Notes under the pieces: model-generated
The model's input: the letters and a program-made list of their open reading frames with translations, nothing else
The model's database searches: none
What the model was told of the DNA's origin: nothing
NCBI RefSeq assembly: GCF_963676685.1
Contig: NC_092346.1
Location: 105,834,001-105,898,000, forward strand
Origin: Mytilus edulis
Taxonomy: Eukaryota
DNA length: 64,000 nt
Direction of reading: 5' to 3'
Shown here: piece after piece, positions 6,124-36,400 of the stretch
Numbering within the stretch: the stretch's first letter is position 1
Layout of the letters: each line of letters opens with the position of its first letter
Program-made: the position numbers and the translations under genes

Positions 6124-9100
6124 TCATTGAAGAACATTTGATAAAAGAACTGCTCCAAAATATGTAGCATCCTTCGTGAGGTCAATGGTCGTACCAGCAA
6201 TTTTGTTTTGTATTTCTAAAACATCATTCTGCTGAACGAATAATACACTTGTTATGCTGCAAGTCTTCATCTTTTTGTTTTTATGACTTTTTGGTCCATG
6301 AACATAACTGTCGTTGCCTTCCACACACCTAAGTACAGTGTCAGTGTTTGGGTTATGCCGATGATGTATGATGGCTATTTCTTCCCTGGACAAAACATTA
6401 TTGAACACAACCTAAAATAACATATATCTATCCTACAATAACATATAGATATTTCTTCCCTGGACAAAACATTATTGAACACAACCTACAATAACATACA
6501 TTTATTTTTATTTTCAAAATTATTTTCCAGATTCTGTTAAATAAACAATTTTCAGTAGCCAGAGCAATCTAATACAGAATGTTTTAAAAGATTCCTTCAA
6601 TTACAAATATTTGATAAATTACAGGTTTATCTTGGAATTAAACAATGTTTTCTATGTAAAACATAGCGAACACTGATTACTGCGAAACCTTTTCTGGTAA
6701 ATTAACATTTTTTTTAGAGATATGATATAAAATGCCAACAAGTAACTATCAACCAGAGAAAACATTTGAAAAAGATAACTATATGCCATCGAATGGCCTT
6801 TAAAAATGAACAAAACCGATAGCATAATTCAAGCTATAAAAGGAATTAGTGTGAAAACGTGTGGAATAAACCAAAAGAGAAACGAAAGACAAAATATGAA
6901 AAACAGCTTCCAATGTCGATTACTGATTTTTCCCAATTAGTGATGTATTTGTGTGAATTCTTTAACAAATAACTTTAAATTTTCCGTCCTGAATATACGC
7001 GAGATATTTGCAAGCAGTCATCAACTAAAGCTCTACAAATCAATCAATCAATAAGTGGATCTTCAGAAAAACAAAGTCCAAACCAGTGGCTCTTTAACAA
7101 AGAAGCGGAAAATATCAAAGAAAAACATAAAGACTCGAAATTCAAAGAGAGACCAGATAAAAACACGGCTAAACAAACGTAAACGACGAAAAGACAAACA
7201 TCAGTCTACCAAACACGTCATTTAGTTCTGGGCAGCATTTATCACTCCAAAAATTATGGATAAACATCTCGGGTGATGTACAATGGTTAGCAGAACAACG
7301 CCTTCTGATTGGTTGTGTATAATTATCTAAGGTGATTCGCATTGGTTAGCAGAACCCGCCTCTAGATTGTTTGTGACAATAATTGAATAATTAATCTCCT
7401 ATCTAGATTACATAAGTTATCGGTGACAATCTGTCAAGCTGTGACTTGGTCGACAACTATTTTGAATGAGGTTTGATAATTATAGTTAAATACATGGACG
7501 ATGACAATATGATGCATTTAATATACACATTAAAATAACACAAAAAAAATACAAATAAACAAAACACTAATTAACATTATTCGGTAGGTTCTTTATCATA
7601 CAATTCTTAGGTTTCATATGTTACACTTGCGTTTCTCCCAATAAAAAATAATGGTCATTTAAAGTGGATTGCATTCTTAGTACCCAATAAATTATCGTCA
7701 ATAAAGCTATTTTTGGTCGGCCTTGAAATATTTTATCCATTATACTTTTCCGAAACCTCTTCCCCCACAAACAAAATGAAGAAACAACAACCAAATATAA
7801 TTGAGTCCACAAGACATGTGTTTACTGTACGAAGCATGTGGCACCTGACAGACGTGTCTCTGTTATTTGTTTTAGATTTCTAAAGTTTTGTTGTGAGCAT
7901 TCTTGATTCTAATTATAAACTTACGTGGAAGTAAACCAGATAGATCCCTGTTTCTTTGGCTTTATATTTCCCCTTTTCTGTATCATCAAATGGATTTTCA
8001 ACATTATTCCAATTTGATCTCTCAAGAAACGTCATAGTCTGACTGTTTTCTGAAAATAACATATGCTATAGCATCATATACTTTTTTTTATTTGAAAATG
8101 TATCAACATCAGATGTTAAATATATAATGTAAAAATTTTGTCGTAAGTATAATCGGTTTAGAAAATTGTCCATTAACTGGCATCTTTAATTACTTGTCTT
8201 AAATTGAACAGATATTAGTCAGTGAAAATTGGAATACATTTTGGTAAGTATCATGACCATGTGGGGTATGTAACAGTTTCCGTTATTACGCAAACCTCTG
8301 TTTAAATGTCAAATTATGATAATAGCATTTTGAGTGCATTTTGGAAAATACTGTAGAAAAACCTATTTTTATAACATAATTTATGTCCATTGACTACTTA
8401 CTTAAACTTGTATATGTTCTATTTCTACAAACTGTACCATGCCATATGTTATTGCATTCAACTGAAAAAAAAAACAAATTATTCACTCAATGGTTAAACT
8501 TTACAAATAAACGAAATAAACAAAAGCAAAAATGCATTTTAATACTGTACAGAGGAATCTACTAGACAAATACCGCCTTAATTTTTTCACTTGGTACGTG
8601 TAAAATTGTAATGGTGGGTCTTTTTAGAAATTCCTGAAGTAAATTTACAATACATGTGTCTTTCACAAATAATTTTGAAGCCCCAGTCCATCAATTGAAC
8701 ATTATAACGAGCGTTATGCTTATGATGCAATTAAACTATTATAGTTTTATATTTGTCACAGTGTGCAAAAGTTGAATCTCACTTAACTCTTCAATTAAAA
8801 AAATATGAAAGCCTGTATAATTAGTTGTATATTTTTGTAGGTTTTGATAATACTACTGCTGCTTTTACCTATACCTGATTTTCGTAACAGAAGGGAGGAG
8901 CTTCCAAGTAGGATATTGGACTGGTAAAGTAAAGAAACTTGTCAAAATTCTTACGAATTCCATCACAGTTTGGGTTGACTGTTATGGATTATCTTAGTCC
9001 CAGATGACCATGGGTATGTAACACTAGGGGTTCCTCAAGTCCGTTATCTTCGTCTCGTAGCTAGCCTCACTGCATACAACTTATAAGGGGATAATGAAGT

Positions 9101-12100
9101 TACATGAGCAATACGACGGGTGTAATTACTCGAACAAGAGCTACATACCCTTTCGAGGTATGAGTTTATGAGCCAGCGGTATTCTATAGGGTTTACTTGA
9201 ACAAGAGCTACATACCCTTTCGAGGTATGAGTTTATGAGCCAGCGGTATTCTATAGGGTTTACTCGAACAAGAGCTACATACCCTTTCGAGGTATGAGTT
9301 TATGAGCCAGCGGTATTCTATAGGGTTTACTTGAACAAGAGCTACATACCCTTTCGAGGTATGAGTTTATGAGCCAGCTGTATTCTATAGGGTTAATGTT
9401 GTTGACTCTTTACTTTTTTGTGAACCTTCCCCAGAATGTTGTTTGTCTTTTTTCTTTTCCCCATGTTTTTGTCTTTCCTCGACTTATAAATTCCTATTAC
9501 CTCGTTTGTCACTTCTTTTTCTTTTATCATTTCGGTTTTATTTGTAAGTGTGCATTAATTAAAGTTCATAATACTTAACCTTGACGTGAAAAATTAATAA
9601 GTACATGCAAACTTTTTTTAAAATGTTAAACAATGAGTATCATGCATGTACTTTTTTTATTTTTCAAGATATTTCAGAGCTTAATTGACCAGTTTCAAGT
9701 ATTAAACATAACATTTTAAATGAAACAAGTATACGCTTCTCAAAAAGGTTGTCTGGATTTAGCATAGCATATGTAGTAAAAATATTACTGATAAAGGATC
9801 TCAGATAAATGAGGCTTGAATTTGTGTTTTTGCGAAAGTTGTTTATTGCTTCAAAAACTGTATGTAAGAAATATATCTTGATTGTCATATTGTTAACTGA
9901 TTACTGTGAAATTTAAAAAAAAAAAAAACTTGATAAAGACGTTCTCTTGGTTCTTAATTTTAGTGATTGCTTCTTAACTAGATATCAAAAGTTAATTTAA
10001 GCATCAGTGAAAATATAAGGGTGACTAGTCTAAAATGTGAATGATGTGCACCATATTCTCTATAACCATTTTTTGTCTTTTCCCAGATCTTGTCCTCATG
10101 GTTAATGTCGCGATCGAAGTCAGAAGTATAATGTGCTGCTTTTATTTTCATCTGAAAAAATAACTGACAGGTCATGAATAAGATAATCATTTGCATTCAA
10201 ATGATATTTTAAAATAAGTAAAGCATATTAATTTGATGAATTTACAAATAAAAGTATGTATACGGTACATGGACAGAAGAACTATACTTAACAACAAAAT
10301 TATTTTAATTTACCTGTGTATTATATGACGTAATTTGTTTTTCAAATTTGATGTTTTTCTAAAATTGTTTAACATTTCACAGCAGTTTTATACTTTTACT
10401 TTAATAATTCATTACTTATTATTATTAACTCTGTATTTACATTGTATCACAGATCAAATGTATTCTTGAATGCATTGTGTGTTTATTTGTGTCACTTCGT
10501 TTTTTGATGGAGTAAAGTCATTCCAATTATATTTTTTAGTGTGTCTTTCTATGTTGTGATGTTATACTACTGTTATATAAAGAGAAGGTTTGGTAACATT
10601 TTTTTAAATGTTTAATCCCGCTGCAATTGTTTGCACCTGTCCTAAGTCAGAAATCTGCTGTTCAGTGGTTGTCGTTTGTTTACGTGGTTCATAAGTGTTT
10701 CTTGTTTCTCGTTTTTTATATAGATTAGACCGTTGGTTTACCCGTTTGAATTGTTCTACACTAGTATTTTTTTGGGCCCTTTACAGCTTGCTGTCCGATG
10801 TGAGCCAAAGCTCCGTGTTTAAAAAAACCGTACCTTGACCTATAATGGTTTACTTTTATAAATTGTGACTTAGATGGAGAGTTGTCTCATAGGCACTCAT
10901 ATCACATGTTTCTATATCTTTATACAGTACATGTAACTATGGCAACACACGAAATACTATCAGATAAGCAAGATAGTCTATTCTGTATGCAATATGTGTA
11001 TCATCGCACGATCATATTATTGTTTTTCACTAGTTAAATTTACTCATTAAGGTCTTTCCTCTACAAGGGACAGACCTTATTGTTTTTCTTCCGTTTTTTC
11101 TTCCAACATTGTTTTGGCATGGCCTCCCCCCATTTCTGTTGAAGTTAACAAGACCAAATATGGACCATAGATAGACCTCATCATGAAGTATAACCAGATG
11201 ACCCTATTAAGAATTTCATTATCCCCTTTACAAGTTATCTCCCTTTTATTTGATATTTTTGACATGCCCCCCCCCCCCCCTCGTTGTTTATGAAGATATC
11301 ATGACCTTATTTGGACAATAGGTAGATCTCATAATGATGTATCACAATATGAGGCTGCTAAGGATTTAATCATTCCCTTTAAGAGTTATATCCCCTTGAA
11401 GCTATTTCTTTTATTTGCATTTTTCTTAAAAAAAGTATTAGAGATAGAATCGAATTAAAAACGGCAACATGTTGTTATCAACCCTTATAAGGAGTAATTT
11501 CTCTTGAAAGATTATACACAATTTTTGAAAAATTCTTATTCGAGAACCGGACGTCGTAGAGACTTGGAACCTTCGACAATAATCTTAAGTTCATGTGACC
11601 TTTAATTTGCACCCAATGTCAAAGGCCACTGAGTTCAAAAAAAAAAATACGCTGCAATTTCAATCTTACATATTAAGAAAACGATAAGAGTTTGCTGCAT
11701 ACATACTGTGTATAAAATGTTCCTCTGGACGAGCTCTACATTTTATACATTAAGCCCAAAAATGTCCGACCGTCTGTTCAAAAGTTACGACGAGATAATT
11801 ATTAAAAGTACAGTATTGTTTGTATATCTTTGAAAAGGTAACAGATATGAACCTACTGTGAATTGCAAAAATGATCAGTTCTTTAAGACCTTCAATTTGA
11901 GGTCAATGTCAGGTCATGATGAAATTTAACCTTGACCTTTAAAGTGAACTATGACCTTGACCTTGTGATATTTGAAAGGTCAAGTGGTCCTGAGTTGAAT
12001 GGTGATAGTCCCATGTCTCTACGACTTCCGGTTCTCAAGTTTGGTATTGCATCATATATTTGATGATTCATTGTGACCTGGATGAACTTTGAAATTGTCC

Positions 12101-15100
12101 CAATTTTCTATAATGTTGTCCTTCAACTGTAGATCATTTATCATCTAACAGATTTGAGATATCTGTTGTCGTTTTAGAGATAATGCAGTTTGAAATTTTG
12201 CAAGCGGAGGCATGTATTTCTGAATCAACAACAGCTTACCACTTAAATTGTTTAAGAAATTGAAGAGGTTAACATAGTTATATGTTTGACCAAATACCTA
12301 AAACATTCCAATGAAAAAAACACAAAAAAATCAATTTGAAATTTTCATGTTTTGCATTGACTTTGTAAGTTTCATAACTTCTATTTATATAGTTGATATT
12401 GCATCATTTTTGGCACTTTGTCAAATGGAGTCATCTGATATATCAAATTGAAGGTCTTAATAAACTCTATTTAAAAATGAAAATTTTAAACCTCTTTTTC
12501 ATCCCAGGGGGAAGGGTGGCGTCATTTAGTACAAAATTTCAAATTTCTCAGATGGTAAGGTTGTCACATATCAAATGAAAGAACATAAAGCGTACATGTC
12601 AAATTTCAATTGATGTCCCCCAAAAATTGGATGGATGGGGTCATTGAGTGCAAAAAAATTAATTTACCTTTAAGATAGGGTTGTTGTATATCAAAAGAAA
12701 GGTCATGATGTGTACATTTGAAATATCAAATTCCCGACCTCCAAAAATTAGTTGGATAGGGTTATTAGGTGCAAAAATTAAACTTTCTAGAACATGGCGT
12801 TGTCGCATATCAAATGAAAGCTCATCTACTCTATGTTACATATAGCATACTTCCGATCTCAAAAATGTAGGCGGATGAGGTAATTAAGTGTAAAAAGCGA
12901 AAAGTTTCAGAAGGTATGCTTGTCGTATATCAAACAAAGTGTCATGCAAAGTACATTACGAAAACATCACTTTTACAGGAAAGACCTTTCAATTGTTTTA
13001 CAAACAATTGAGATACTAGTGTTGCTATTATTTTTGTTTTACTTATTTAATGATATCAGTCTTGTTCTGTAGTACATGATTTTACAAGAAAGTAAAAAAA
13101 AATTATATGAATTGTGTAAGGCTGGTCGATTTCAATGTTGACATATCAGAGCACAAAACAGACATGTAGACTTATATCTATGTATAATTGCTACAGTTAG
13201 TATGTATTTACCGTTTTACTAGGATCACCTTTCTCCCCTTTCGGTCCTATTAATGAATAATATAAAACGATTGATTAAAAGATGAGGATCGTCAACTTAT
13301 GTTTTAAGATAAATAACCGTGGCTATGTCCTTTAAAAATTACTGGCATATGAGACATAAAATCAAACTGATATATTAGTGGAACGAAACAATATAAAGTA
13401 ACGAAAAAACATATAAAACATGTAAAATATATACCTAGACTGACATATCAAATTTACTGCCGAACTGGCGTTTTAACCGTAAAGCAGATAAAATTGTTTT
13501 CCACTACATATACGTGTATTCGAAGCTTGAAAATATTACATTCCAATTTTGGTAAAATTTATACCCAGACTTAGTAAAATTAAGTAAACACATTTATTGT
13601 ATCGTGTTTTTATTAAATGATACACACCAGTATTTCCTTGAGTTCCAATAGGACCCTGATCTCCTTTTATACCAGGAGCACCACGTGATCCTTGTTCTCC
13701 TGTTGTACCAGATTCACCCTTTTCTCCTCGATCACCTTTGGGTCCGGGAGGTCCTTTTCTCCCACGCCTCCCTCTGCACTTACATCTGCGAGCTGAGATT
13801 TAAATATATTGAACAGATATAATTTTCTATAGAGCTATTTCATTTGAACTAAATGCTGTTTTATTTCCTTATATCCCACATTTGCTATTATTTATATTTT
13901 AGATAAGGGTGGGGGTTTAGTACCATTAAAACGTTTAAACCCGCTGCTATGCACCTGTCCTAAGTCAGGAGTCTGATGTTCAGTAGTTGTCGTTTGTTGA
14001 TGTGGTTCATAAAAGTTTCTCGATCCCCTTTTTTTTATATAGATTAGACCGTCGATTTTCCCATTTGACTGGTTTAACACTAGTCATATTTTGGGGCGCT
14101 TTATAGCTTGTTGTTCGGTGTGAGCCAAGTCTCCGTGATGAAGACCGTTCTTTGACCTATTATTGTTTACTTTTATAAATTATGACTTGGATGGATAGTT
14201 GTCTCATTGGCACTCATAGAACATCTTCTTATATCTATAGATGTTTAAGATGTTACACCCAAAAATTGTATGTGTTCTTTGTTCTTAAAAACACGTACTT
14301 GCCGCGGATTAATGCGGTGGCAGTCTTTAGTGTTTTGGGGGTGTAAAATGTTATCCGAAACTTATCAAACATTTGTATTCATATTTGTATTTTGGAAACG
14401 TTTTGTACTTGTATCGTCTTTACTTATAGCAAATACATTCGAAACGTTTTGTACTTGTATCGTCTTTACTTATAGCAAATACATTCGACACGTTTTGTAC
14501 TTGTATCGTCTTTATTTATAGCAAATACATTCGACACGTTTTGTACTTGTATCGTCTTTATTTATAGCAAATACGTTCGACACGTTTTGTACTTGTATCG
14601 TCTTTACTTATAGCAAATACATTCGACACGTTTTGTACTTGTATCGTCTTTATTTATAGTAAATACGTTCGACACGTTTTGTACTTGTATCGTCTTTATT
14701 TATAGCAAATACGTTCGACACGTTTTGTACTTGTATCGTCTTTATTTATAGCAAATAAGTTCGAAACGTTTCAAAGATCATCTTGTGCAATAGTTATATA
14801 TACCTCTCTTCGTTTTGGTTTTCTTTTGAGCATTTCGTTTAAAAACCACGTGATTGTAAATTTCATCGTCGTCTTCATCCTATTGAAAGTAAATGATAAA
14901 ACTTTGAAAGAAAAGACATCAAATTTAAGGCATAACACGAAATGAAACTAAAAAAAAACCACTAGAAGTTCGCCTTCTATGCATTTGCTGCAACGAGACG
15001 TATAGACATATTTTGTTTTATTGTCTTTTCAAAAATCTAGCCGTTGACAATTGACCTGGATGTCAACATTTTGAAATTTAATGACAAGACAATATCTTTT

Positions 15101-17282
15101 TACATTTTAACATTTTAAACAATAAAAAAAATAAGTATTTATATTTATCAGATATATATTTAATTCTTCCCTGTCTTTTTAACACTAGTAAAAGGATTAT
15201 ATAAAAGATATTTGCCCTTGCAAAGTACGAATAACTTGCAATGTCATTGTTTATTACAGCGTTCATGGTGAAGGTTAATCTAGAAGAGCGCTATGGACAC
15301 ACGCTATTTTCCTATGCAAGCATTTTAGATACGGTATAATGTAAAATTAAATTTAATTGAATGATGCGTTGTTTATTATACAAGTGTTATATAGTTAATT
15401 GACTTTTCTTAGCTGATTTTCATTTCACAATCTAGTGAGTTATTAATAATTTATTATTTCACTTACCGAAATAAGAGGGGCTAGGCTTCGTGTTCATAAC
15501 AACGACATTTGTAAGGTAAACCCCTGCTCCTGTCGACTTTTTTTTTAATATTTTGCCATGCCGTAGCCAATAAAAGCTAACTATACGTTTTTGCTCATTA
15601 TTGAAGGGCTTACAATGCCTGATGGTTGTTTAAAGCCTCGTCTTTTGTCACTGGAAGACGATAAACCAGGTTTATCCTATTATGTTTCGAGAAGCTAAAA
15701 TACATATCGACTTTACTTATACTGCAACTTTAAAAACTAGAAAGGGGAAACTACAGAATGTATTGTTATGAAAAAGGGGAATTCCATTACGTTGTTATCC
15801 TATGAACTAATGTTAATTCGATTTGAGAGTACAAATTATTCTGAAAATGTTAATCGAGACATATGCTAACTACTCTCATTTTTCGTTCATTTTATGTAAT
15901 TTTAAAACGAAATAATTTTGACGGAAATTTTCGCAGAAAATTATCAGATGTATGTAAGAAATGTAGAAAATACAAAGCGCATTACAAAAAAAGAGAAGAT
16001 TGATTGATTGTTGGTTGCTTTACGCCGCATTAGAGAAGAAGGAAAATTTATAGAGCAAGGGAAAGTAGTTATAAAAAGTAACTTACAAAAACTCAAAAAA
16101 AAACTCAAAATTATCTAACAAAATTTACCGGATTGATGTCAAGTCCTTCTTGAGGATTACGCATTTACTGTTTTAGAGATCAAATTCATTAAGGATAAAA
16201 AAAAACCTTTCTTTATTCACAGGAAGTAATTGAATACATAGATTGATGTCAACTTTTGAAGTAATTAAAATCAGTTTAGGTTTACTAAGCCGTTAACACT
16301 ATGATATACATTATGTGACTATGAATGTAAAAGATTTACTGATTTATTTGAACACCTTTGGCACATCATATAGATGAAACTTTCTTCATTTTTGCTGCAT
16401 ACATTGATGGATAAAGATAACTAGTTAAAAAGATAATACAAAGAAAATACCACCAGTCGAAAAAGTAAATATAAGTTTTTTTTTATCTGCAAAAGAGCGT
16501 TGCATCAACCTATGTGCGATGAGTTATAATTGTAAATATTAACTTAAAGATTAATAAAAATAAAAAAACTGAAATGTTTTAATATTAATTTATTTCCCTT
16601 TAAGGTAATCAGATCAATTTACAGAACAGAAAGAGGAAGTAAATTGATTCATGAGAATTTGGCTGATTTCAGCGAATTCAACGGAAAGGGAGATAATACC
16701 AGTTAAGCTGATGTTAATCAATTATGTTTCCTCCGTCATTTTCATGTATCAATTTTACAGTATTATACATGAAGAATGAAGCTTTCTTAACGACATACCT
16801 TCCCTCCTTAAAAGAACCCAACTAAAAACAAAAAAGAAATAAAAATTCAAAATACAAATACAAAAGCGAAAACAAAACACTAGCTAGAATACAAAAATCA
16901 AAAAAAAGGAGAAAAACAGTTTTGCACGTGTAAAAGTATTCGTTAAAGAAAATTGAATTAGAAGTATTTCTATGATTAGAAATAAACATTTTTTAATACT
17001 TACTCGATGAGTTTCTTCAACTCGATTTTGTAATGCCTCTGAGTGTAATGCAGCTTTATGTAACTCGGTAGACAGTTCTTTTCTGATGTTAATATTTTCT
17101 GATAGTATCCATACATTGCATGCCAAAATTGCACAAGACAAAATAAATAGAAGTATAGTTGCTAAGATAATTAGTCTTTGTGAACTCGTAAGTGATGGTT
17201 TTCTTTGCGTTGTTGTGTCACCTCGACATTTAGGACATGGCGACATTTCATGTGCATAATTAGCATCAGAGTATAAATCCAT
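6124..17282 (-). CDS. TNF-superfamily ligand with collagen stalk (ectodysplasin-A-like architecture), ~390 aa, 9 coding exons
   Basis: Exons (minus): 17282-17004 (cytoplasmic + TM LIILATILLFILSCAILACNVWIL), 14879-14804 (DEDDDEIY...KTKTKR), 13792-13628 (ARRCKCR + 16 Gly-X-Y), 13246-13212 (GPKGEKGDPSKT), 10358-10314, 10151-10052 (or 10067, donor ambiguous; IKAAHY = THD strand A), 8461-8402 (CNNIWHGTVCRNRT), 8049-7925 (W...GKYKAKETGIYLVYFH), 6411-6124 (LRC...KTCS...TYFGAVLL, TGA). All junctions GT-AG with compatible phases and no internal stops. Confidence 0.88.
9130..9393. repeat. 67-bp tandem repeat, ~4 copies
   Basis: Unit GAACAAGAGCTACATACCCTTTCGAGGTATGAGTTTATGAGCCAGCGGTATTCTATAGGGTTTACTY. 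Confidence 0.9.
10440..10920 (+). repeat. Dispersed 3'-anchored repeat family (...TTGCACCTGTCCTAAGTCAG...GTTGTCTCATTGGCACTCAYACCACATCTT)
   Basis: Same family at 13893-14239, 24330-24585 and 51125-51574; related copies at 38738-39078 (-), 19798-20120 (-) and 21215-21535 (+). All share the 3' end and vary in 5' truncation. Confidence 0.7.
11047..13020 (+). mobile_element. Helentron/DINE-1-like non-autonomous rolling-circle element in a TNF intron
   Basis: Subterminal inverted repeats AAGGTCTTTCC (11049-11059) and GGAAAGACCTT (12978-12988), 5' hairpin, 3' hairpin TCAATTGTTT...AAACAATTGA, terminal CTAGT, internal degenerate ~120-bp repeats. Confidence 0.72.
14395..14771. repeat. 46-bp minisatellite, ~8 copies
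   Basis: Unit ACGTTTTGTACTTGTATCGTCTTTAYTTATAGCAAATACRTTCGAM; ends ~30 bp from the exon-2 donor. Confidence 0.92.
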
Positions 17283-18031: not shown

Positions 18032-21000
18032 ATGGACGTCAAGTTGGTTACCTATTCCCTATTCCCTATTCGTTACCTATTCCCTATTCCCTATTCGTTA
18101 CCTATTCGTTACCTATTCCCTATTCCCTATTCCCTATTCGTTACCTATTCGTTACCTATTCCCTATTCCCTATTCGTTACCTATTCGTTACCTATTCCCT
18201 ATTCCCTATTCGTTACCTATTCCCTATTGGTTACCTATTCGTTACCTATTCCCTATTCCCTATTCGTTACCTATTCCCTATTCCCTATTCGTTACCTATT
18301 CCCTATTCCCTATTCGTTACCTATTCGAACAAAGTTTGGAGACTTATTGTTTTTGCTCAGTTCTTATTATTTTTATTATTCTTCTTCTTCCTCTTCCTAA
18401 TCGTCCTCTTCTTCCTCTTCTTCCTCTTCTTCTTCCGCCACTTTAAAAATGAACTTGTCCGCAGCATTTCTCCAAAATTACTTGTCAGATTTACTTAGGG
18501 TTTCATAAAATGTTAGAATAATATGTCTAGGTGATCCATCAATCGTTCATTTGTGCATTGGGGTCTATTAAGGGGTATTTGGGGGGGGGGGGGGCAGAAA
18601 GAAGGGAGGGGTTTACTATAGAACCCTATGGGATTTTATTTTCTAAAATTTTCAAATGAATATAACTTGAAAACTGTAAGTGATAGATACATGCAGTCTT
18701 CAGAAATGATTAAAGGACAATAAAACAAATCACATAAAATATAGGGGAGTCCCTGGGGGTCATCCCTACCCCCTTTCAATTCGAGAATATGCTTTTAACT
18801 TGTAAACGGTCCAGATCCCCACCCCTAAACCATATATATTCTTGTATGGGACAATAAAACTAATCAAATGAAATTAAATAAAAGTTCCTGGGGGTCATCC
18901 CCATCCCGTTCAATTTGAGAATGTACTATTATCTTGTAAATGGTCCAGATCCCCACCCCTAAACCATATATTATCTTGTAGGGGACAATAAAACAAATGA
19001 AATGAAATAAAGGGAAAGTCCCTAGCGGGTCACCCCCACCCCCTCTTGTTTGAAAACTTATAAACGGTCAACATCCCCACCCCTAAACTATATATATTCT
19101 TGTAAGGGACAATAAAACTAATCAAATGAAATTAAATGGAAGTTCCTTGGGGTCAACCCCACCCCGTTCAATTTGAGAATGTACTATTATCTTGTAAATG
19201 GTCCAGATCCCCACCCCTAAACCATATATGTTCTTGTAGGGGACAATAAAACAAATAAAATGAGATAAAAAGGAAGTCCTGAGGGGGTCATCCCACCCCC
19301 TCTTGTTTGAAAACTTGTAAACGGTCAACATCCCCACCCCTAAACCATATATATTCTTGTAGGGGACAATAAAACAAATAAAATGAAATGTAGGTAAAGT
19401 CCATGGGGGTCATCACCACCCCCTCCTGTTTGAATACTTGTAAATGGTGGAGATCCCCACCAGTAAGCCATATATATATTCTTGTATGGGACAAAAAATC
19501 AAATCAAATTAACATGGGACCATATGAATAGCGAGTTATGGGAGCTTTATTTGGGAGACTTCGTAACAGCATCCTGTTACAATTACTTCTTGTTGTTTAT
19601 ACTCTTATATCTGGTAATAGTTCTAAATTTGTTGAGGTAAAATGATCTTTTTATGACCTATTTATATGTGTTTGTTCTCAACCGATCCTTTTACTTTATG
19701 TTCGATACTCATTTGTTCCTTATTTGATTTTTATACGTTCTACCTTTTAACTGCTTTATGTCCGTATGTTTGAAGATGGATCTTGGTTAGCGCTTGCATA
19801 AAAAAAAAAGATGTGGTATGATTGCCAATGAGACAACAACCCACAATAGACCAAAATGACACAGAAACTATCAACTATAGGTCAATGTACGGCCTTCAAC
19901 AATGAGCATAGCCCAAACCGTGTAGTCACCTATAAAAGGCCCAGATATGACAATTTCAAACAATTCAAACAACAAAACTAACGGCCGTATTTCATATACA
20001 AAAAAATAAACGGAAAACAAATATGTAACACAAAAACAAACGATAACTACTTAATTTCAGGCTCTTGTCTAGGGACAGGCACATACTAACATAATGTGGT
20101 GGGGTTAAACATGTTAGCAGGGTGTACATCGTTTCGGAGCATGCTATTACCTTGTTTAATTCGTTCCATCACTCGCTTATAATTCGCTTATAATACGTGT
20201 ATCATACGTTGCACCTTTTAAAACATGATTTTCAATTGTTTTGTTGTCTCTGGTGGTAGATTTGGATTCTAAGAGGTGATATAACTCTATAAGCGCATAT
20301 GTACCCGTTCCAGCGCTCGGATAATACCCTGTTAAATATTCGTTACTTATTCGCTTTTAATACGTTTGTTCTACGTTGCACCTTTTACTGAGAAAAGGAT
20401 TTTCAATTGTGTTTATATCTCTGGTGGTAACAATGTGTAATTAGAGATGAAATGACCCTATTAGCGTGCATGTACCCGTTCCAGCGCTCGGTTAATACCC
20501 TGTTACCTATTCGTTACCTATTCGTTACCTATTCACTTATAATACGTTTGTTGTACGTTGCACCTTTTAGAAAAGGATTTTCAATTGTGTCCATGTCTCT
20601 GGTGGTAACAATGTGTTCTTAGAGATAAAATGACCTTATTAGCGCGCATGTACCCGTTCCAGCGCTCGGTTAATACCCTGTTACCTATTCACTTATAATA
20701 CGTTTGTTGTACGTTGCACCTTTTAGAAAAGGATTTTCAATTGTGTTCATGTCTCTGGTAGTAACAATGTGTAATTAGAGATGAAATGACCCTATTCGCG
20801 CGCATGTACTCGTTCCAGCGCTCGGTTAATACCCTGTTACCTATTCGTTACCTATTCACTTATAATACTTTTGTTGTACGTTGCACCTTTTAGAAAAGTA
20901 TTTTCAATTGTGTTCATGTCTCTGGTGGTAACAATGTGTAATTAGAGATGAATTGACCCCATTAGCGTGCATGTACCCGTTCCAGCGCTAACGAATAGGT

Positions 21001-23215
21001 AACAGGGTATTATCCGAGCGCTGGAACGGGTACATATGCGCTTATAGAGTTATATCACCTCTAAGAACCCAAATCTACCATCAGAGACAACAAAACAATT
21101 GAAAATCATGTTTTAAAAGGTGCAACGTATGATACACGTATTATAAGCGAACTATAAGCGAGTGATGGAACGAATTAAACAAGGTAGTAGCATGCTCCGA
21201 AACGATGTACACCCTGCTAACATGTTTAACCCCACCACATTATGTTAGTATGTGCCTGTTCCTAGACAAGAGCCTGAAATTAAGTAGTTATCGTTTGTTT
21301 TTGTGTTACATATTTGTTTTCCGTTTATTTTTTTGTATATGAAATACGGCCGTTAGTTTTGTTGTTTGAATTGTTTGAAATTGTCATATCTGGGCCTTTT
21401 ATAGGTGACTACACGGTTTGGGCTATGCTCATTGTTGAAGGTCGTACATTGACCTATAGTTGATAGTTTCTGTGTCATTTTGGTCTATTGTGGGTTGTTG
21501 TCTCATTGGCAATCATACCACATCTTTTTTTTTATGCAAGCGCTAACACGGTGATTTCATCCCTTCGAACCAAGATCCATCTTCAAACATACGGACATAA
21601 AGCAGTTAAAAGGTAGAACGTATAAAAATCAAATAAGGAACAAATGAGTATCGAACATAAAGTAAAAGGATCGGTTGAGCACAAACACATATAAATAGGT
21701 CATAAAAAGATCATTTTACCTCAACAAATTTAGAACTATTACCAGATATAAGAGTATAAACAACAAGAAGTAATTGTAACAGGATGCTGTTACGAAGTCT
21801 CCCAAATAAAGCTCCCATAACTCGCTATTCATATGGTCCCATGTTCATTTGATTTGATTTTTTGTCCCATACAAGAATATATATGGCTTACTGGTGGGGA
21901 TCTCTACCATTTACAAGTATTCAAACAGGAGGGGGTGGTGGTGACCCCAAGGGACTTTACCTACATTTCATTTGATTAGTTTTATTGTCCCCTACAAGAA
22001 TATATATGGTTTAGGGTTGGGGATCTGGACCGTTTACAAGATAATAACACATTCTAAAATTGAACGGGGTGGGGATGATCCCCAGGGACTTCCATTTAAT
22101 TTCATTTGATTTGTTTTATCGTCCTTTTCAAGAATAAATATGGTTTAGGGGTGGGGATCTGAACCGTTTACAAGATAATAGTACATTCAAATTGAACGAG
22201 GTGGGGGTGATCCCCAGGAACTTTTATTTAATTTCATTTGATTAGTTTTATTGTCCCCTACAAGAATATATATGGTTTAGGGTTGGGGATCTGGACCGTT
22301 TACAAGATAATAACACATTCTAAAATTGAACGGGGTGGGGATGATCCCCAGGGACTTCCATTTAATTTCATTTGATTTGTTTTATCGTCCTTTTCAAGAA
22401 TATATATGGTTTAGGGGTGGGGATCTGAACCGTTTACAAGATAATAGTACATTCTCAAATTGAACGGGGTGGGGGTGATTCCCAGGAACTTTTATTTAAT
22501 TTCATTTGATTAGTTTTATTGTCCCATACAAGAATATATATGGTTTAGGGGTGGGGATCTGGACCGTTTACAAGTTAAAAGCATATTCTCGAATTGAAGG
22601 GGGTAGGGATGACCCCCAGGGACTCCCCTATATTTCATGTGATTTGTTTTATTGTCCTTTAATCATTTCTGAAGACTGCATGTATCTATCACTTACAGTT
22701 TTCAAGTTATATTCATTTGAAAATTTTAGAAAATAAAATCCCATAGGGTTCTATAGTAAACCCCTCCCTTATTTATGCCCCTCAAAATACCCCTTAATAG
22801 ACCCCAATGCACAAATGAACGATTGATGGCTCACCTAGACATATTAGTCTAACATTTTATGAAACCCTAAGTAAATCTGACAAGTAGTTTTGGAGAAATG
22901 CTGCGGACAAGTTCATTTTTAAAGTGGCGGAAGAAGAAGAGGAAGAAGAGGAAGAAGAAGAATAATAAAAATAATAAGAACTGAGCAAAAACAATAAGTC
23001 TCCAAACTTTGTTCGAATAGGTAACGAATAGGGAATAGGGAATAGGTAACGAATAGGTAACGAATAGGGAATAGGGAATAGGTAACGAATAGGTAACGAA
23101 TAGGGAATAGGGAATAGGTAACGAATAGGTAACGAATAGGTAACGAATAGGGAATAGGGAATAGGAATAGGTAACGAATAGGGAATAGGGAATAGGTAAC
23201 CAACTTGACGTCCAT
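18032..23215. mobile_element. Foldback-type non-autonomous DNA element with ~2.3-kb inverted arms
   Basis: Termini ATGGACGTCAAGTTGGTTACC / GGTAACCAACTTGACGTCCAT; TSD ACATATCAT at 18023-18031 and 23216-23224 (7-bp CATATCA if the TIR starts at T). Arms 18032-20345 and 20989-23215; subterminal CCTATTC/GTTACCTATTC minisatellite; central ~160-180-bp tandem units; no transposase. Confidence 0.85.
18326..19592 (+). mobile_element. Helentron/DINE-1-like non-autonomous element nested in the left foldback arm (mirror copy ~21764-23015, minus)
   Basis: GGAGACTT subterminal motif at both ends, (TTC)n microsatellite, ~120-bp internal tandem units, 3' hairpin GTAACAG-CATC-CTGTTAC. Confidence 0.65.
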
Positions 23216-23448
23216 ACATATCATTGCATTTTAGGTAATTTATTAATAAGCTGAACATGTATTTCTGTTTTCTTCTATAACTTTTAACGCTTGCGCCGAA
23301 TAAAACACAGACGCAGTCTAATTGTTAGAATAAGCACACTACATATTTTTCATTTTGTATTTTCATTTGATACCCATGTATAATTTCATTATATTCAGTT
23401 ACCGTTACTTCCCTGGAAAATATTGCTGGCTCATAAACTACCCTGAGT

Positions 23449-25910: not shown

Positions 25911-28900
25911 TTATTTTTTATGTAATAAAATGACTCCAAAGTTATTGCCGACTCCCCACAATCTTAACTTGGTACTTTGTGTTTCAATACGTATGGATAA
26001 CGTTTGACCTTTGTTTATAATAAATGTGCCTAACGTGGCACATGATTTTTCTGTGAAGTTTTGTTGTCTATCAGCTAGATCTAGTTCATGTCCCATGTAG
26101 ACACCGTCTTGACAAGTCATTATCTGTTTGTCATCTAAGAAGATGGCAGCTCTTTCCTCTAAATTAGTTGGAATGAATAGTATCTGAAAACAAGATGACA
26201 ATTATAACATTGTAGATGACTGACACTGAATCTAATAGTACCTATTTCAAATATTATGTCCAGCAAAGCAACATGAAATTGTGTGACAATATATCAAATC
26301 ATATTCTCTTTGGCATTGGGTTGCTGTCTTGATGATATAAATCCAACACTCATATATTTAAAAATTTAAAGAACGTATGCATTTCATTTGTCATCAAATT
26401 GTGTCTCGGCGATGGAATACGAGTTAGCCTTTCACAGATACCATTACATTGGTTGTGTTGTACATTTGATAAAGTATAATAACAAAAATTTTGAACTTCG
26501 AGAAATATTCTAAACGGAAGTCCCTAAGTAAATGACACTTTGTACATTCATCATGTTGTTCACTAAAGTGATCTTATAAATTTGTTTTTTGACTTTGCAT
26601 ATTCTTGACGTTGAATACATGACTAAACTAGTAACTTTAGGTTTGTGTGCAAGAAAGCCATAATATATAACTTAATCTATATTTTGGAATAATACATCAG
26701 ACACAAAGTTTACGACAAAGTTAGTTTAGTACATTTATTATCTTATATGGAATTTGGTATTTCTTTATTGTTTTGGCATTATGCATTTTCCTCAAGATAT
26801 TAGCTATACTTAAACCACTTACATTCAGATACACTAGATATAAACCATCATATTTTACTTTATATTTCCCATGCTTAGATGTCAGCTCCAGTGGCGACAT
26901 CTCTTTTGGTGACGATAGTTTCCATGGTACACGAAGAGTCTTTTCTGTATTTTTATAGAAATGTATACAATGTTTTCAATTGATTTTGATTAGCAAACAA
27001 GACATACGGATACGCATACTTTTTATTAATTTCAATTATTTTCCAATTAACTTTTGGTACATCCGGGTTATGTTATAGGTTTTATGTTTTGTCATTCTAT
27101 TGTCAGGTCAAAACAAAACATTATTAGAAAAACAATCTTTTGATTGTCAATTTTAATATATGTTTTAAGGTCGTTTGAACTTATATTAACATTTGTAATC
27201 GTATAAAAACACGTTTTCGTTCAATTATAATGATATCATTAATGTGTTTAATCTGTATCGTGATAAGAAAAAAATAATTGCACAGGTTTATATAATTTAT
27301 GATCGTCTGATTAACACAAAAAACAACAAATCAGATTAATTTTGTTTACATCGAGTGTTAAACCATCATGTGTGTAGATTCATCTTGTGTCTGAAGCAAA
27401 AAGACTAACACTATTAAAGCTTCTTATAAACAGGTGATAAAAAGGTACAATGTGTAGAGATAACTGCTCGTATACATCATGGAAACAGAATTCTATTTTA
27501 GTTTATGTTTACGATATCTTCTTCATTTATATCCTTTAGAACTTTCAAATGTTTTACCTGATTGTCTACTGTCCCTCTCATAAGTCTTATTGGTTGAACT
27601 TTCAAATGTTATACCTGATTGTCTATTGTCGCTCTCATAAGTCTTATTGGTTGAACTTTAAAATGTTATACCTGATTGTCTACTGTCGCTTTCATAAGTC
27701 TTATTGTTGTATGTTTTACCTGATTGTCTACTGTCGCTTTCATACGTCTTATTGTTGTAACAAACTAATCCACCAAATTCTTTATAACATTCTGAAAATA
27801 TTTGGGATCTAAATCAAAATATTTCACAATAGATATCAATAACATAAACACATATTCATCATCACTTATGAACTTGTACCGATATATAAACTCTCTCATT
27901 TTTATTTGTTACTTTGACTTTTATCTTCTTAATTTTTGAGATTTGCCCAACTGTAGTTAACTTCTGTCGAACTTTGATATATAACAAGTTTCGTTTTCAG
28001 GATGCCACTAATCTTTCATTACATGTACGTCTACCTTCCAGGTGTATTTTCACATTGTTGTACTTACTGTCAATAGCCATCAATAGTTTTTTCGACATTG
28101 TAGTATTTATACGAAAATCAAGCTCCACATGGGCTGCTTGTAATGCTGCCTGCAATAAAAGTATCTTGTCTGAGTACAACTTAAAATTTAACTGAAAAAG
28201 GGATATTTTTTTTTATTATTATTTCAAATAGAAAAATTGTTTTGCCATAACTTAATTGGTTTTTTTTTTTATTCTAAAGAGAATACCGCGTTAATGGTAG
28301 TTCATTGAAAGTCCTTATATAATTTATTTACCATCGGCAATTTGATGGAACATCTATTTCGACGATGACAAAGAATATGTTCATTTCGTCGTAAACACAA
28401 TCCCATCCTCCTTTTCCCCGAACGTGACATAACGAATTAGACTTATTACCGGGTTGGTACGTTTTGCACAACACGACAGGTGCCACGTATGGAGCATGAT
28501 CTGATTAACCTTGAGAGCACCTGAGATCACCCCGAGGTTTTTAAGTGGTGTTCCTCAGTATTAAGTCATGTTAGTTGTTTATGTTGTTTTCAGTATATCG
28601 GATTGTATTTGCCATTGCGGTGCTAGTCTATTTTTCGACATGAATTTTACCTTGACACAATAACACGTGACTATTATTATAAACTGTAAATATCTAAATT
28701 ATTTTGAATAAGTTGAAATGTTTGTTTTCTGTTTCATTTACGTATACTGTACACATTGAATTCGTTAACGTAATTAATAAATTTCGTGAAATAAAGTATT
28801 TTTAGGCAGAAAAAAACATCTTGTGAAAAAAGTTTCGATACAAAAAAAATAAAGTATCAAAAACAAATGAAAAGTTACGCGCAAATTGTATGCGTCCGTA

Positions 28901-29997
28901 GCGCGTTATCCGATTAACGTTCCACAGGAACGACCACAGATAAAGTTCCACCTGTTGTGTTTGATCATTCAACGGTTTATTTTTAATCCACTCTACGCAT
29001 TTATCACTTAACTGATGTATAATGTGAATATTTTATCGTGTCTTCCTTATTTGGGTGAAATATCATCATTGTAACTTTATCAAAATTTAAGTTAGTGGGT
29101 ACCTCTTTTGAACTGACTATCGCCTTATTGCGCAGCTTCTTCCGACATTTCCTCAGGTATCGTTTTTCTTTCTTGCATTTTTTCTTATCTTAAATATGAA
29201 GACGGTGTCTAATCCTTATGTAGATAAATCAATTTAAAAATATTTCAAGAAGAAAAATAGCAAATTAAACACACAATAAACAGTAAATTCAGATTTATAT
29301 CATAGTTTAAGTTATAGTTATAATTTTACATTATTATTATTATTTGAAGAAAATAACCCAACAATTGTACATGGTTTCAGAAATGCAATGTCATTTAAAA
29401 AAAAGTACAAAAACCATACCTTTATCTGCAAATCTTTTATGGCGAAAATATTGATCGTCGGAAGCTTTGTTTTCTGTGCCATCATCGTCCTGTACATTTT
29501 TATGCATAGGATCATGCTCTCTTGTATTCTGACAAAGTTAAAACATAAACCATAAGTTTAAGAAGTATATTACATAATAGCTTTGTCAAAACAAATGAAG
29601 GAAATTAATAGTTAGACATAAAACACCGTAAAATTGATGTGGACAAACTGTATGTTATATCTTTGTGCAATATTAATAGTTTTTGAGAGAAGATATATTC
29701 AAATATAAAATGTTTGTTATTTCGTGTTTGATGAGGAGTTATCTGAGCAGATATCATAAATATTGGATGTGCTTCTTTTTATATTACATAATTGAGAAAT
29801 TCATAAGCATATAAGAAAGAGATTACCTGAACTGGTATATGGCCGTCTATCAAAATGTCTTGTACAGATTTACGCAGAACAACAACATCGTTTGAAAGTC
29901 GCGCTATTTCTTTGGACGACCATAAAATGTAAAAACATATAATAAAATATCCGAAATTTTGAATGCATACGGGTGCATTATTTTGAGTAACTTTCAT
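25911..29997 (-). CDS. TNF-superfamily ligand (EF-disulfide/Eiger-EDA-like THD) with basic stalk, ~304 aa, 7 coding exons
   Basis: Exons: 29997-29827 (hydrophobic FGYFIICFYILW), 29528-29420 (furin RHKR), 29188-29103 (KKKCKKEKRYLRKCRKKLRNK), 28149-28068 (LQAAHV), 27791-27720 (CYKEFGGLVCYNNKT), 26944-26823 (W...GKYKVKYDGLYLVYLN), 26183-25911 (MTC...KSC...NNFGVILL, TAA). Phases consistent; 915 nt total. Confidence 0.87.
27538..27758. repeat. 4-copy tandem duplication (48/57-bp period) of a TNF exon 3' end plus donor site
   Basis: TACCTGATTGTCTACTGTCGCTYTCATAAGTCTTATTG repeated; the rightmost copy is the exon end at 27720. Confidence 0.85.
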
Positions 29998-33400: not shown

Positions 33401-36400
33401 GTTTTAGTTTGTAATCCGGATTTGTTTTCTCTCAAACGATTTATGACTTTTGAACAGCGGTATACTACTGTTGCCTTTATTTATTCAAAGCGAAATGAAT
33501 CATACCTATATTCTTAAATGTATTATTCCTACACATCAAACCGTGCCATTTGTTTACACACATTGCATCTAGAATAAAAAGAGATACCATTATCATACTG
33601 AAAAATATCTAGTTAACGTGTTAGAGATATTTAAAACAAAAGTATGTCACTGTATAAGTAGCTAATATGATAGAAAATAACCAAAGGATGTTTGATCAAA
33701 ATGCAAAATATATATTATTATTTGTTTGTTGCACATAATTTGTTTATTTTTAAGAGCTTTTGATTTTCCATTTGATAAGATACTTTTCGTATTGAATTTT
33801 CCTCACAGTTTAGTATTTTTGTTATTTTACTTTTTTCACATAATATTTTATATCATATGTTGAAATGATGTCTTTTGAAAATTATTTGACTTTACGATAG
33901 ATAATTGGAAAGCACTCCAGACGTATATATGTATAAAGCGGTATTTTTATTTTCTTTTGACATAAGTAATGTCTTTGTCTTGCTCATCTTTGTTCTGTGT
34001 TAAAGTAAACTGAATTGAAGTGGTGTAATAAACATATAATTATATAAGTTTCAATTATGTATTCACAAAAAGTGTAGAGTAACACGAGTCATTGTAGTTG
34101 TTTAACAGTGCTAAATATCGCTACATTTTATTTTGTTATAGTGCAACTTACGGAGGTAAATTATTGAAATAAAGAAACACGGAGACCCCCAGCAGAGATG
34201 AAACAATTAGGAATAGGAAACAATCTGTGCAGTTAAAGATCAGATGACTATATTGGAATCTAAAGATCTAAGACCACGAAAACATGTCACTAGAGAGTTG
34301 GGTATAGACACATCTTATTGGTGATACAATTTGTGACCGTTTAACCTGTGTAATGTCGATATCAGTCAATATACGTAAACGTTTGACCGTTTAACCTGTG
34401 TAATGCCGATATCAGTCAATATAAGTAAACGTTTGACCGTTTAACCTGTGTAATGCCGATATCAGTCAATATAAGTAAACGTTTGACCGTTTAACCTGTG
34501 TAATGTCGATATCAGTCAATATAAGTAAACGTTTGACCGTTTAACCTGTGTAATGCCGATATCAGTCAATATAAGTAAACGTTTGACCGTTTAACCTGTG
34601 TAATGTCGATATCAGTCAATATACGTAAACGTTTGACCGTTTAACCTGTGTAATGTCGATATCAGTCAATATACGTAAACGTTTGACCGTTTAACCTGTG
34701 TAATGCCGATATCAGTCAATATAAGTAAACGTTTGACCGTTTAACCTGTGTAATGCCGATATCAGTCAATATAAGTAAACGTTTGACCGTTTAACCTGTG
34801 TAATGTCGATATCAGTCAATATAAGTAAACGTTTGACCGTTTAACCTGTGTAATGTCGATATCAGTCAATATAAGTAAACGTTTGACCGTTTAACCTGTG
34901 TAATGCCGATATCAGTCAATATAAGTAAACGTTTGACCGTTTAACCTGTGTAATGCCGATATCAGTCAATATAAGTAAACGTTTGACCGTTTAACCTGTG
35001 TAATGCCGATATCAGTCAATATAAGTAAACGTTTGACCGTTTAACCTGTGTAATGCCGATATCAGTCAATATACGTAAACGTTTGACCGTTTAACCTGTG
35101 TAATGCCGATATCAGTCAATATAAGTAAACGTTTGACCGTTTAACCTGTGTAATGCCGATATCAGTCAATATAAGTAAACGTTTGACCGTTTAACCTGTG
35201 TAATGCCGATATCAGTCAATATAAGTAAACGTTTGACCGTTTAACCTGTGTAATGCCGATATCAGTCAATATACGTAAACGTTTGACCGTTTAACCTGTG
35301 TAATGCCGATATCAGTCAATATAAGTAAACGTTTGACCGTTTAACCTGTGTAATGCCGATATCAGTCAATATAAGTAAACGTTTGACCGTTTAACCTGTG
35401 TAATGTCGATATCAGTCAATATAAGTAAACGTTTGACCGTTTAACCTGTGTAATGCCGATATCAATATAAGTAAACGTTTGACCGTTTAACCTGTGTAAT
35501 GTCGATATCAGTCAATATAAGTAAACGTTTGACCGTTTAACCTGTGTAATGTCGATATCAGTCAATATAAGTAAACGTTTGACCGTTTAACCTGTGTAAT
35601 GCCGATATCAGTCAATATAAGTAAACGTTTGACCGTTTAACCTGTGTAATGCCGACATCAGTCAATATAAGTAAACGTTTGACCGTTTAACCTGTGTAAT
35701 GCCGACATCAGTCAATATAAGTAAACGTTTGACCGTTTAACCTGTGTAATGCCGACATCAGTCAATATAAGTAAACGTTTGACCGTTTAACCTGTGTAAT
35801 GCCGATATCAGTCAATATAAGTAAACGTTTGACCGTTTAAGCTGTGTAATGCCGATATCAGTCAATATAAGTAAACGTTTGACCGTTTAACCTGTGTAAT
35901 GCCGATATCAGTCAATATAAGTAAACGTTTGACCGTTTAACCTGTGTAATGCCGATATCAGTCAATATAAGTAAACGTTTGACCGTTTAACCTGTGTAAT
36001 GCCGATATCAGTCAATATAAGTAAACGTTATTTAACCTGTGTAATGCCGATATCAGTCAATATAAGTAAACGTTTGACCGTTTAACCTGTGTAATGCCGA
36101 TATCAGTCAATATAAGTAAACGTTTGACCGTTTAACCTGTGTAATGCCGATATCAGTCAATATAAGTAAACGTTATTTAACCTGTGTAATGCCGATATCA
36201 GTCAATATAAGTAAACGTTTGACCGTTTAACCTGTGTAATGCCGAAATCAGTCAATATAAGTAAACGTTATTTAACCTGTGTAATGCCGATATCAGTCAA
36301 TATAAGTAAACGTTATTTAACCTGTGTAATGCCGATATCAGTCAATATAAGTAAACGTTTGACCGTTTAACCTGTGTAATGCCGATATCAGTCAATATAA

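What the first reader, a model, noticed from the sequence alone, without database searches (positions are those of the whole stretch)
8402..33568. Shared extra symmetric exon inserts a C-x8-C plus N-glycosylation module into all three TNF domains
Seen: between strand A (AAHY/AAHV/AVHY) and the Trp-containing A' exon, each gene has a small phase 1-1 exon: 8461-8402 CNNIWHGTVCRNRT, 27791-27720 CYKEFGGLVCYNNKT, 33568-33506 CVNKWHGLMCRNNT. Consensus C-x3-[WF]-x-G-x2-C-x1-2-N-x-T-[YF], conserved despite low overall identity. Known: the A-A' loop is a receptor-specificity region (extended in TRAIL/RANKL). I do not recall a disulfide hairpin there in vertebrate TNFs. Inference: a lineage-specific disulfide-bonded, glycosylated mini-module defining this subfamily; it can be skipped in frame (60/72/63 nt) and so could switch receptor specificity.
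Basis: partly seen in the sequence, partly recalled or inferred. Interest (0 to 1): 0.72.

Follow-up and report, generated by a model that had tools for sequence, protein, structure and literature searches.

The report
Mollusc TNF disulfide-hairpin cassette exon
Three neighbouring mussel TNF-family signalling genes each carry one extra small exon, shared with chitons, snails and other bivalves, that adds a predicted disulfide-locked, likely sugar-bearing hairpin to the loop that grips the receptor in the human relative EDA; it is kept in all mussel transcripts seen but dropped in some annotated snail isoforms, so it likely reshapes, and may let splicing tune, receptor binding.

Summary
Three phase 1-1 exons (60/72/63 nt, AG/GT) sit between the strand-A and Trp exons of three tandem Mytilus edulis TNF genes of the EF-disulfide (EDA/Eiger/APRIL/BAFF) type. 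They are real coding exons: 40 of 40 mussel-type protein records spanning the region contain them, and 17 RNA reads join gene 1's exon to the next exon, with no skip listed. The module is not mussel-specific. C-x8..12-C, usually followed by an N-x-T sequon, occurs in a chiton, gastropods and distant bivalves. All 35 module rows fall in one 58-row branch of a tree built without the module; none of the 23 rows outside has it. AlphaFold predicts a confident beta-hairpin with the two cysteines cross-strand. The insertion lies in the segment that forms EDA's main EDAR-binding patch. Skipping was not seen in mussel, but RefSeq isoforms of the snail Gigantopelta lack exactly this 23-aa module. Both that gene and mussel gene 1 also use a 15-nt alternative donor just before it. 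Disulfide, glycan and any effect on receptor binding are untested. I found no description in print; the key oyster TNF survey was not readable.

The parts
8402..8461 (-). Gene 1 module exon, 60 nt, phase 1-1, ECNNIWHGTVCRNRTYTSL; predicted hairpin 36-39/42-45 of the TNF domain, sequon NRT
   Evidence: model identical to XP_071160465.1; 17 reads join it to the next exon
27720..27791 (-). Gene 2 module exon, 72 nt, phase 1-1, CYKEFGGLVCYNNKTYESDSRQS, sequon NKT
   Evidence: model identical to XP_071160477.1; 8 of 8 records
33506..33568 (-). Gene 3 module exon, 63 nt, phase 1-1, AMCVNKWHGLMCRNNTFKNI, sequon NNT
   Evidence: 4 of 4 spanning records
6124..17282 (-). Gene 1: type II TNF ligand with TM, RxRR sites, collagen repeat and EF-disulfide TNF domain (EDA-like layout), 375 aa. 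Exons 17282-17004, 14879-14804, 13792-13628, 13246-13212, 10151-10052, 8461-8402, 8049-7925, 6411-6124
10052..10151 (-). Gene 1 strand-A exon with two in-frame donors 15 nt apart (after 10067 or 10052), with or without 5 residues just before the module
   Evidence: long/short RefSeq pairs in M. edulis, M. galloprovincialis, M. trossulus, M. californianus
25911..29997 (-). Gene 2: TNF ligand without collagen, RHKR site, 304 aa. Exons 29997-29827, 29528-29420, 29188-29103, 28149-28068, 27791-27720, 26944-26823, 26183-25911
   Evidence: Pfam TNF E 0.0011, below the curated cut-off
27539..27754 (-). 48/57-nt tandem repeat that copies the 3' end and donor of gene 2's module exon; the second donor (27672) adds 16 aa with a second NKT sequon
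   Evidence: used in gene model VDI55768.1
30443..39891 (-). Gene 3: TNF ligand with TM, no collagen, 305 aa. Exons 39891-39664, 39372-39303, 38155-38105, 37791-37757, 37248-37182, 33568-33506, 31685-31543, 30703-30443
   Evidence: (orthologues)

Best explanation
The three exons are copies of one ancient molluscan cassette exon that adds a predicted disulfide-closed beta-hairpin with a likely N-glycan to the A-A' loop of EDA/Eiger-type TNF ligands, where it likely stiffens and enlarges the outer surface that would face the receptor. Shown: the exon, its phase, its inclusion in mussel mRNA, its spread across chiton, gastropods and bivalves, and its confinement to one branch. Predicted: hairpin with C36/C45 cross-strand, not among the confident trimer contacts. 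Inferred: the exon entered the conserved phase-1 intron of the A-A' loop before the molluscan classes split and was passed on through tandem duplication. In mussel it is essentially constitutive and sets which receptor, or how tightly, each paralogue binds. In some gastropods it is alternatively skipped, which returns the loop to Eiger-like length; the neighbouring 15-nt donor gives a second, finer setting.
For: Exon structure and frame. 40 of 40 spanning mussel-type records include it; 17 reads in 2 of 4 runs join it to the next exon. Named carriers: Liolophura, Gigantopelta, Nucella, Solemya, Potamilus, Pecten, Saccostrea, Pinctada, Mytilus. All 35 module rows lie in one 58-row branch (SH-aLRT 93) of a core-only tree, 0 of 23 outside; 10 changes vs 26 shuffled. 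Three relatives keep part of the module sequence, two of them clearly, but lack both cysteines, as expected of a bonded pair. AF2 mean pLDDT 91, strands 36-39 and 42-45, block pLDDT 92-95; in the natural skip isoform the remaining loop falls below 50. Trimer model 0.87 vs best control 0.00, contact agreement at least 79%, pLDDT 70; module residues are not listed in the interface (a pass by likeness to solved TNF trimers is expected; calibration 21 of 30 pairs vs 0 of 23 single chains, animals 7 of 16). EDA residues 256-273, just before the aligned Trp, form the main electrostatic patch for EDAR CRD2. Gigantopelta X6/X7 lack the 23-aa module; X3/X4 shorten it but keep a sequon.
Against: No experiment shows the disulfide, the glycan or a receptor. 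8 of 27 module rows lack the sequon. 23 of 58 rows in the branch lack the module, and for most I cannot tell loss from skipping. In Eiger-Grindelwald the reported key residues are Asp337, His388-Arg391 and Arg396-Arg401, and removing Eiger's Asn333 glycan site did not change binding; the S. frugiperda model points to the CD and GH loops and strand D. So for single-CRD receptors this loop may not matter. No coordinates were available to measure the S-S distance or the position relative to a docked receptor. The skip isoforms are computed RefSeq models whose read support I could not see. Other cysteine pairs occur in this loop outside the branch (P0153 C-x9-C, P0134, mussel P0006).
Confidence: 0.58

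Rival explanations
1. The exon is mainly a regulated splice switch: inclusion or skipping selects between two receptors, or makes an inhibitory subunit, as EDA-A1/A2 and deltaBAFF do.
For: Symmetric exon; Gigantopelta X6/X7 lack it; the looked-up Haliotis X3 and Pomacea X15 records lack it although close relatives have it; a 15-nt alternative donor occurs in both a mussel and a snail. Precedents: EDA-A1/A2, deltaBAFF. The skip isoform still folds as a TNF domain.
Against: No skipped form in 40 mussel-type records or 17 reads; reads were few and covered gene 1 only. Longer Haliotis and Pomacea isoforms were not seen. Symmetric exons give low-level skipping noise that annotation pipelines record.
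Confidence: 0.25
2. The hairpin and glycan serve folding, secretion, protease resistance or tethering to lectins or matrix in haemolymph and mucus, not receptor choice.
For: Cysteines, Gly and sequon are conserved while the exposed positions vary; the loop is predicted ordered with the module and disordered without (different species); Eiger's glycan did not affect binding.
Against: Many relatives in and outside the branch do without it; the Trp/aromatic at the hairpin tip is kept in 18 of 27, which fits a binding surface; the site is a receptor patch in EDA.
Confidence: 0.2
3. It is a general, already known feature of invertebrate TNF domains, or neutral loop variation.
For: Other invertebrate TNFs have unrelated-looking cysteine pairs in this loop. 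About 20 module-bearing hits are unnamed, so non-molluscan carriers are not excluded. Gao et al. 2015 (oyster TNF survey) could not be read.
Against: Solved Eiger structures have only the E-F disulfide. 0 of 23 rows outside the branch carry it. Two neighbouring mussel TNF genes have the same intron with no such exon found (the scan recovered 2 of the 3 known exons). The module is more conserved than the core. No description turned up.
Confidence: 0.07

Closest known systems
Ectodysplasin A (EDA-A1/A2) and the EDA-EDAR complex
   Same: Gene 1 has TM, furin-type sites, collagen repeat and an EF-disulfide TNF domain; VIA Z 16.9, rmsd 2.1-2.4, 137-139 aligned. EDA uses the A-A' segment as its main receptor patch, and splicing switches its receptor.
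   Different: EDA's A-A' segment is about 22 residues with no cysteine pair (sequence partly recalled); its switch is 2 residues at strand C, not a cassette in the A-A' loop. Genes 2 and 3 have no collagen. Orthology is not established.
Eiger (arthropod TNF)
   Same: Best structural match (6i50: Z 19.0, rmsd 2.3, 148 aligned); E-F disulfide; skipping the module gives an Eiger-like loop length (55-60 vs 59 in an unnamed hit I read as Eiger).
   Different: Single E-F disulfide only, flexible A'A* loop; binds single-CRD receptors through other surfaces.
BAFF/APRIL and deltaBAFF
   Same: EF-disulfide group. A short exon-skipped BAFF isoform forms inactive heterotrimers.
   Different: deltaBAFF loses a core exon at strand A / the A-A' loop (recalled, not checked here); here an extra exon is added, and skipping leaves a complete domain.
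TRAIL/RANKL extended AA'' loop
   Same: Long insertion in the same loop, linked to receptor specificity (recalled).
   Different: Other TNF group, lower Z (14-15); no disulfide hairpin and no separate symmetric exon that I know of (recalled).

Membership tests
TNF ligand superfamily | C-terminal TNF homology domain (jelly-roll) | tested here: met
   Pfam PF00229 above cut-off for gene 1 (25.2 bits) and the gene 3 orthologue (26.1), below for gene 2 (19.4); AF2 model matches TNF ligands, Z up to 19.0
TNF ligand superfamily | Type II membrane anchor near the N-terminus | tested here: met
   Hydrophobic segments in exon 1 of genes 1 and 3; gene 2's is shorter and weaker, read by eye
TNF ligand superfamily | Homotrimer | tested here: inconclusive
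   Predicted only: 0.87 vs best control 0.00, may be from likeness to solved trimers
EF-disulfide group (EDA, APRIL, BAFF, TWEAK, Eiger) | Cysteine pair linking strands E and F | tested here: met
   C124 and C146 invariant in A2 and aligned to the APRIL/EDA cysteines; group definition in PMC6684607
EF-disulfide group (EDA, APRIL, BAFF, TWEAK, Eiger) | Nearest solved relatives are members of the group | tested here: met
   Top sequence hits APRIL, EDA, Eiger, BAFF; top 10 VIA rows all in the group
EDA orthologue | Collagen domain plus furin site before the TNF domain | tested here: met
   Gene 1 only: PF01391 E 2.9e-10, RARR; genes 2 and 3 have no collagen
EDA orthologue | Groups with vertebrate EDA in a tree | tested here: inconclusive
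   The one EDA-like row (P0198, identified from memory) lies outside the molluscan branch in an unresolved fork; few columns
EDA orthologue | Binds EDAR/XEDAR-type receptor | not testable with these tools
   No receptor known
Alternatively skipped cassette exon | Symmetric, frame-preserving exon | tested here: met
   Phase 1-1, 60/72/63 nt
Alternatively skipped cassette exon | Skipped transcripts exist in mussel | tested here: inconclusive
   None in 40 records or 17 reads, but depth is low and genes 2 and 3 had no reads laid
Alternatively skipped cassette exon | Skipped transcripts exist in any carrier | tested here: met
   2 of 7 Gigantopelta RefSeq isoforms lack exactly the module; computed models, read support not seen
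Disulfide-bonded, N-glycosylated module | Cys-Cys bond and occupied sequon | not testable with these tools
   Only predicted geometry, joint loss of both cysteines and sequon frequency 19 of 27

The most novel reading that the evidence does not exclude
Molluscs built a combinatorial splice code into the receptor-binding loop of their EDA/Eiger-type TNF: a 500-million-year-old disulfide-glycan cassette exon, a conserved 15-nt alternative donor beside it, alternative replacement segments in caenogastropod-like relatives, and EDA-A1/A2-style 2-5 residue inserts at strand C, together letting one gene address several TNF receptors.
Probability: 0.22. Interest if true: 0.75.

Novelty: new variant of a known kind. 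Interest (0 to 1): 0.5.

Why it matters
No molluscan TNF ligand-receptor pair is structurally defined in what I read, although molluscs have the largest invertebrate TNF expansions. This module gives a sharp marker for the molluscan EDA/Eiger-type branch and a natural deletion pair (Gigantopelta X1 vs X6) for testing how a small inserted exon changes receptor choice. If splicing controls it, the EDA-A1/A2 principle would have a second, independent solution in protostomes. It is also a clean case of exon gain adding a disulfide mini-domain to a conserved fold.

Tried and rejected
Artefact or chance ORF: rejected (RefSeq identity, reads, cross-species conservation). Mussel-specific feature: rejected. 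More carriers in the M. edulis genome: five protein queries found only the three window genes or nothing; the Pfam scan listed 29 other TNF-domain matches, whose upstream exons I did not map except for two neighbours. The C-x5-C in the neighbouring gene P0006 lies inside its Trp exon, not on a separate exon, so I do not count it as the module. The first tree dropped several module rows through a faulty pattern and was replaced. ESM Atlas searches gave only generic C1q/TNF clusters and no taxon for the basal carrier P0085. A search for an EDA-A5 precedent found nothing. Three look-ups of earlier findings returned nothing. RNA reads were laid on 6050-8650 only, so the strand-A junction of gene 1 and both other genes were not measured.
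Full report
Observation. The window is from Mytilus edulis: gene 1's last exon is 100% identical to a RefSeq protein of that species. The three small exons are at the stated places on the minus strand with AG/GT ends and the stated peptides. Exon-by-exon models show each as phase 1-1 between a phase 0-1 strand-A exon and a phase 1-0 Trp/GxY exon; deleting it keeps the frame. Models of genes 1 and 2 equal XP_071160465.1 and XP_071160477.1 letter for letter. The consensus occurs 3 times in the window and in 0 of 100 simulated windows, a circular test. More telling, the module is better conserved between paralogues (10/15, 6/15, 5/15) than the core (33/126, 33/124, 30/127) or the residues right after it (1-3 of 16).

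The genes. All three are TNF ligands of the EF-disulfide group. A profile of eight domains finds APRIL, EDA, Eiger and BAFF first among solved structures. The AF2 model of gene 1 matches Eiger (Z 19.0, rmsd 2.3, 148 aligned), BAFF, TWEAK, EDA and APRIL (Z 16.5-17.0) above all other TNFs. Gene 1 has an EDA-like layout with TM, RARR site and collagen repeat; genes 2 and 3 lack collagen. Two more TNF genes lie just left of the window. Both have the phase-1 intron after strand A, and a scan found no candidate symmetric exon in either intron; the same scan recovered 2 of the 3 known exons. The module exon is therefore an addition to a shared intron.

Inclusion in mussel. Every fetched record that spans strand A to the GxY motif contains the module: 28 of 28 for gene 1 and its mytilid-type orthologues, 8 of 8 for gene 2, 4 of 4 for gene 3 (many are near-copies or gene models). 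Raw RNA reads were laid on 6050-8650 from four runs, 6-18% of each. Two runs covered the exons: 11 reads (4 starts) and 6 reads (1 start) join the module exon to the Trp exon, about equal to the depth there, and no loose end at that acceptor was listed. This shows inclusion but bounds skipping only loosely. Genes 2 and 3 were not tested with reads.

Distribution. A profile search of 1.84 billion representatives gave 178 hits at E up to 0.001, 150 listed. I aligned 96 sequences, leaving out fusions, very long proteins, most vertebrate TWEAK/APRIL-like hits and some fragments, and dropped 15 more fragments for the tree. In the tree of the core without the module, all 35 module rows fall in one 58-row branch (SH-aLRT 93, not starred) and 0 of 23 rows outside have it; the label needs 10 changes against 26 when shuffled. 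Of ten hits looked up, nine were named, all molluscs. Seven carry the module: Liolophura (chiton), Gigantopelta and Nucella (gastropods), Solemya, Potamilus, Pecten and Saccostrea (bivalves); Pinctada also has it. About 20 carriers remain unnamed, so non-molluscan members are not excluded. After removing 8 near-copies, spacing was C-x8-C in 16 of 27, x9 in 1, x10 in 5 and x12 in 5; 19 of 27 have a sequon within four residues of the second cysteine, 18 the Gly, 18 the aromatic. Three relatives lack both cysteines while keeping part of the sequence, two of them clearly. Against a strict boundary: P0153, which fell outside this branch on a long branch and was not, has a C-x9-C without sequon; P0134 and mussel P0006 have shorter pairs.

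Splicing. Seven RefSeq isoforms of the Gigantopelta gene vary here: X6 and X7 lack exactly the 23-residue module with a junction change that fits a phase-1 exon; X3 and X4 shorten it but keep a sequon; X2, X4 and X7 lack five residues just before it. Mussel gene 1 has the same five-residue choice from two donors 15 nt apart, annotated in four Mytilus species; the His-to-GxY distance is 83 or 78 in both animals and 60 or 55 after skipping. The Haliotis X3 and Pomacea X15 records lack the module, but I could not fetch their longer isoforms. All are computed models whose read support I did not see.

Structure. AF2 gives mean pLDDT 91 and a hairpin with strands 36-39 and 42-45, which places C36 and C45 opposite each other; the sequon follows at 47-49, and the optional five residues lie in a preceding hairpin. 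No coordinates were returned, so the bond distance was not measured. The natural skip isoform folds as a full TNF domain (pLDDT 87.7) with the remaining loop under 50 (different species). A trimer model scored 0.87 against a best control of 0.00, with contacts agreeing at least 79% and pLDDT 70; the alignment was not used, calibration was 21 of 30 pairs vs 0 of 23 single chains (animals 7 of 16), and a pass from likeness to solved trimers is expected. Module residues are not among the confident contacts, which fits an outer position but does not prove it.

Mechanism. In EDA-EDAR, residues 256-273 form the patch that supplies most electrostatic contacts to CRD2, and A259E or D265G abolish binding (PMC9918506, passages and section 7). 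These residues lie just before the Trp to which the mussel Trp aligns, so the module is inserted into that segment. I infer that it reshapes the receptor-facing surface (0.58), with splicing as a secondary control that is weak or absent in mussel. Against this, Eiger-Grindelwald uses other residues and tolerates loss of an Eiger glycan site (PMC8024323, passages), and the S. frugiperda Eiger model points to the CD and GH loops (PMC6684607, passages). Rivals are a regulated receptor switch (0.25), a folding or tethering role (0.2) and a general or neutral feature (0.07).

Literature. Six searches for molluscan or invertebrate TNF structure, splicing or EDA-like genes gave no description of the module. 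I read passages of bioRxiv 10.1101/2024.07.27.603686 (abstract and term passages; zero hits for 'insertion' or 'Mytilus'; its supplement was not seen and may show these models), PMC12843592, PMC4979521, PMC12367993, PMC3308963 and PMC4349256 (deltaBAFF precedent). Gao et al. 2015 on oyster TNFs appeared only as a reference and may bear on novelty. Statements on TRAIL/RANKL loops, the exon missing in deltaBAFF and the labels EDA or Eiger for unnamed hits are recalled.

Verdict. New variant of a known kind; interest 0.5.

Noticed in passing
window 10052-10067 (-): Two in-frame donors 15 nt apart in gene 1's strand-A exon; long/short pairs annotated in four Mytilus species and an equal 5-residue choice in Gigantopelta.
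   Followed up: partly
P0212 vs P0072, P0213 vs P0102, P0074 and P0068: 2-5 residue inserts right after the strand-C YxxY motif in Haliotis, Liolophura, Pomacea and Nucella records, the position of the EDA-A1/A2 two-residue switch. May be chance use of a nearby GT.
   Followed up: no
P0073, P0074, P0078, P0080 vs P0068: Close relatives of the Nucella protein carry different 10-14 residue segments, or none, where the module sits; the Pomacea gene has at least 15 annotated isoforms. Possible mutually exclusive exons.
   Followed up: no
window 27539-27754: Tandem repeat duplicates the 3' end and donor of gene 2's module exon; the second donor adds 16 aa and a second sequon (model VDI55768.1); later donors hit a stop.
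   Followed up: partly
window about 6440-6484 (-): Partial duplicate of the acceptor and first codons of gene 1's last exon; a M. galloprovincialis isoform X3 uses it and ends early.
   Followed up: no
window 37231-37319 and 34334-37139: 46-nt duplication of gene 3's strand-A acceptor and a 2.8-kb array of a 50-nt unit in the intron before its module exon; the RefSeq model of gene 3 is truncated here.
   Followed up: no
G000:C3:105777586-105829000 (L030-L034, L041): Two further TNF genes continue the cluster to the left, five in tandem; one older gene model (CAG2257021.1) fuses three of them into one 946-aa protein.
   Followed up: partly
window 44500-49700 (-): Exons of a BTB-kelch-like gene upstream of gene 3 (read by eye).
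   Followed up: no
window 53400-60420 (-): Long ORFs that look like a LINE-type retroelement (ORF1, endonuclease, reverse transcriptase) broken into several frames (label from memory).
   Followed up: no
window 18047-23200: Large inverted arrangement of satellite and repeat blocks between genes 1 and 2.
   Followed up: no
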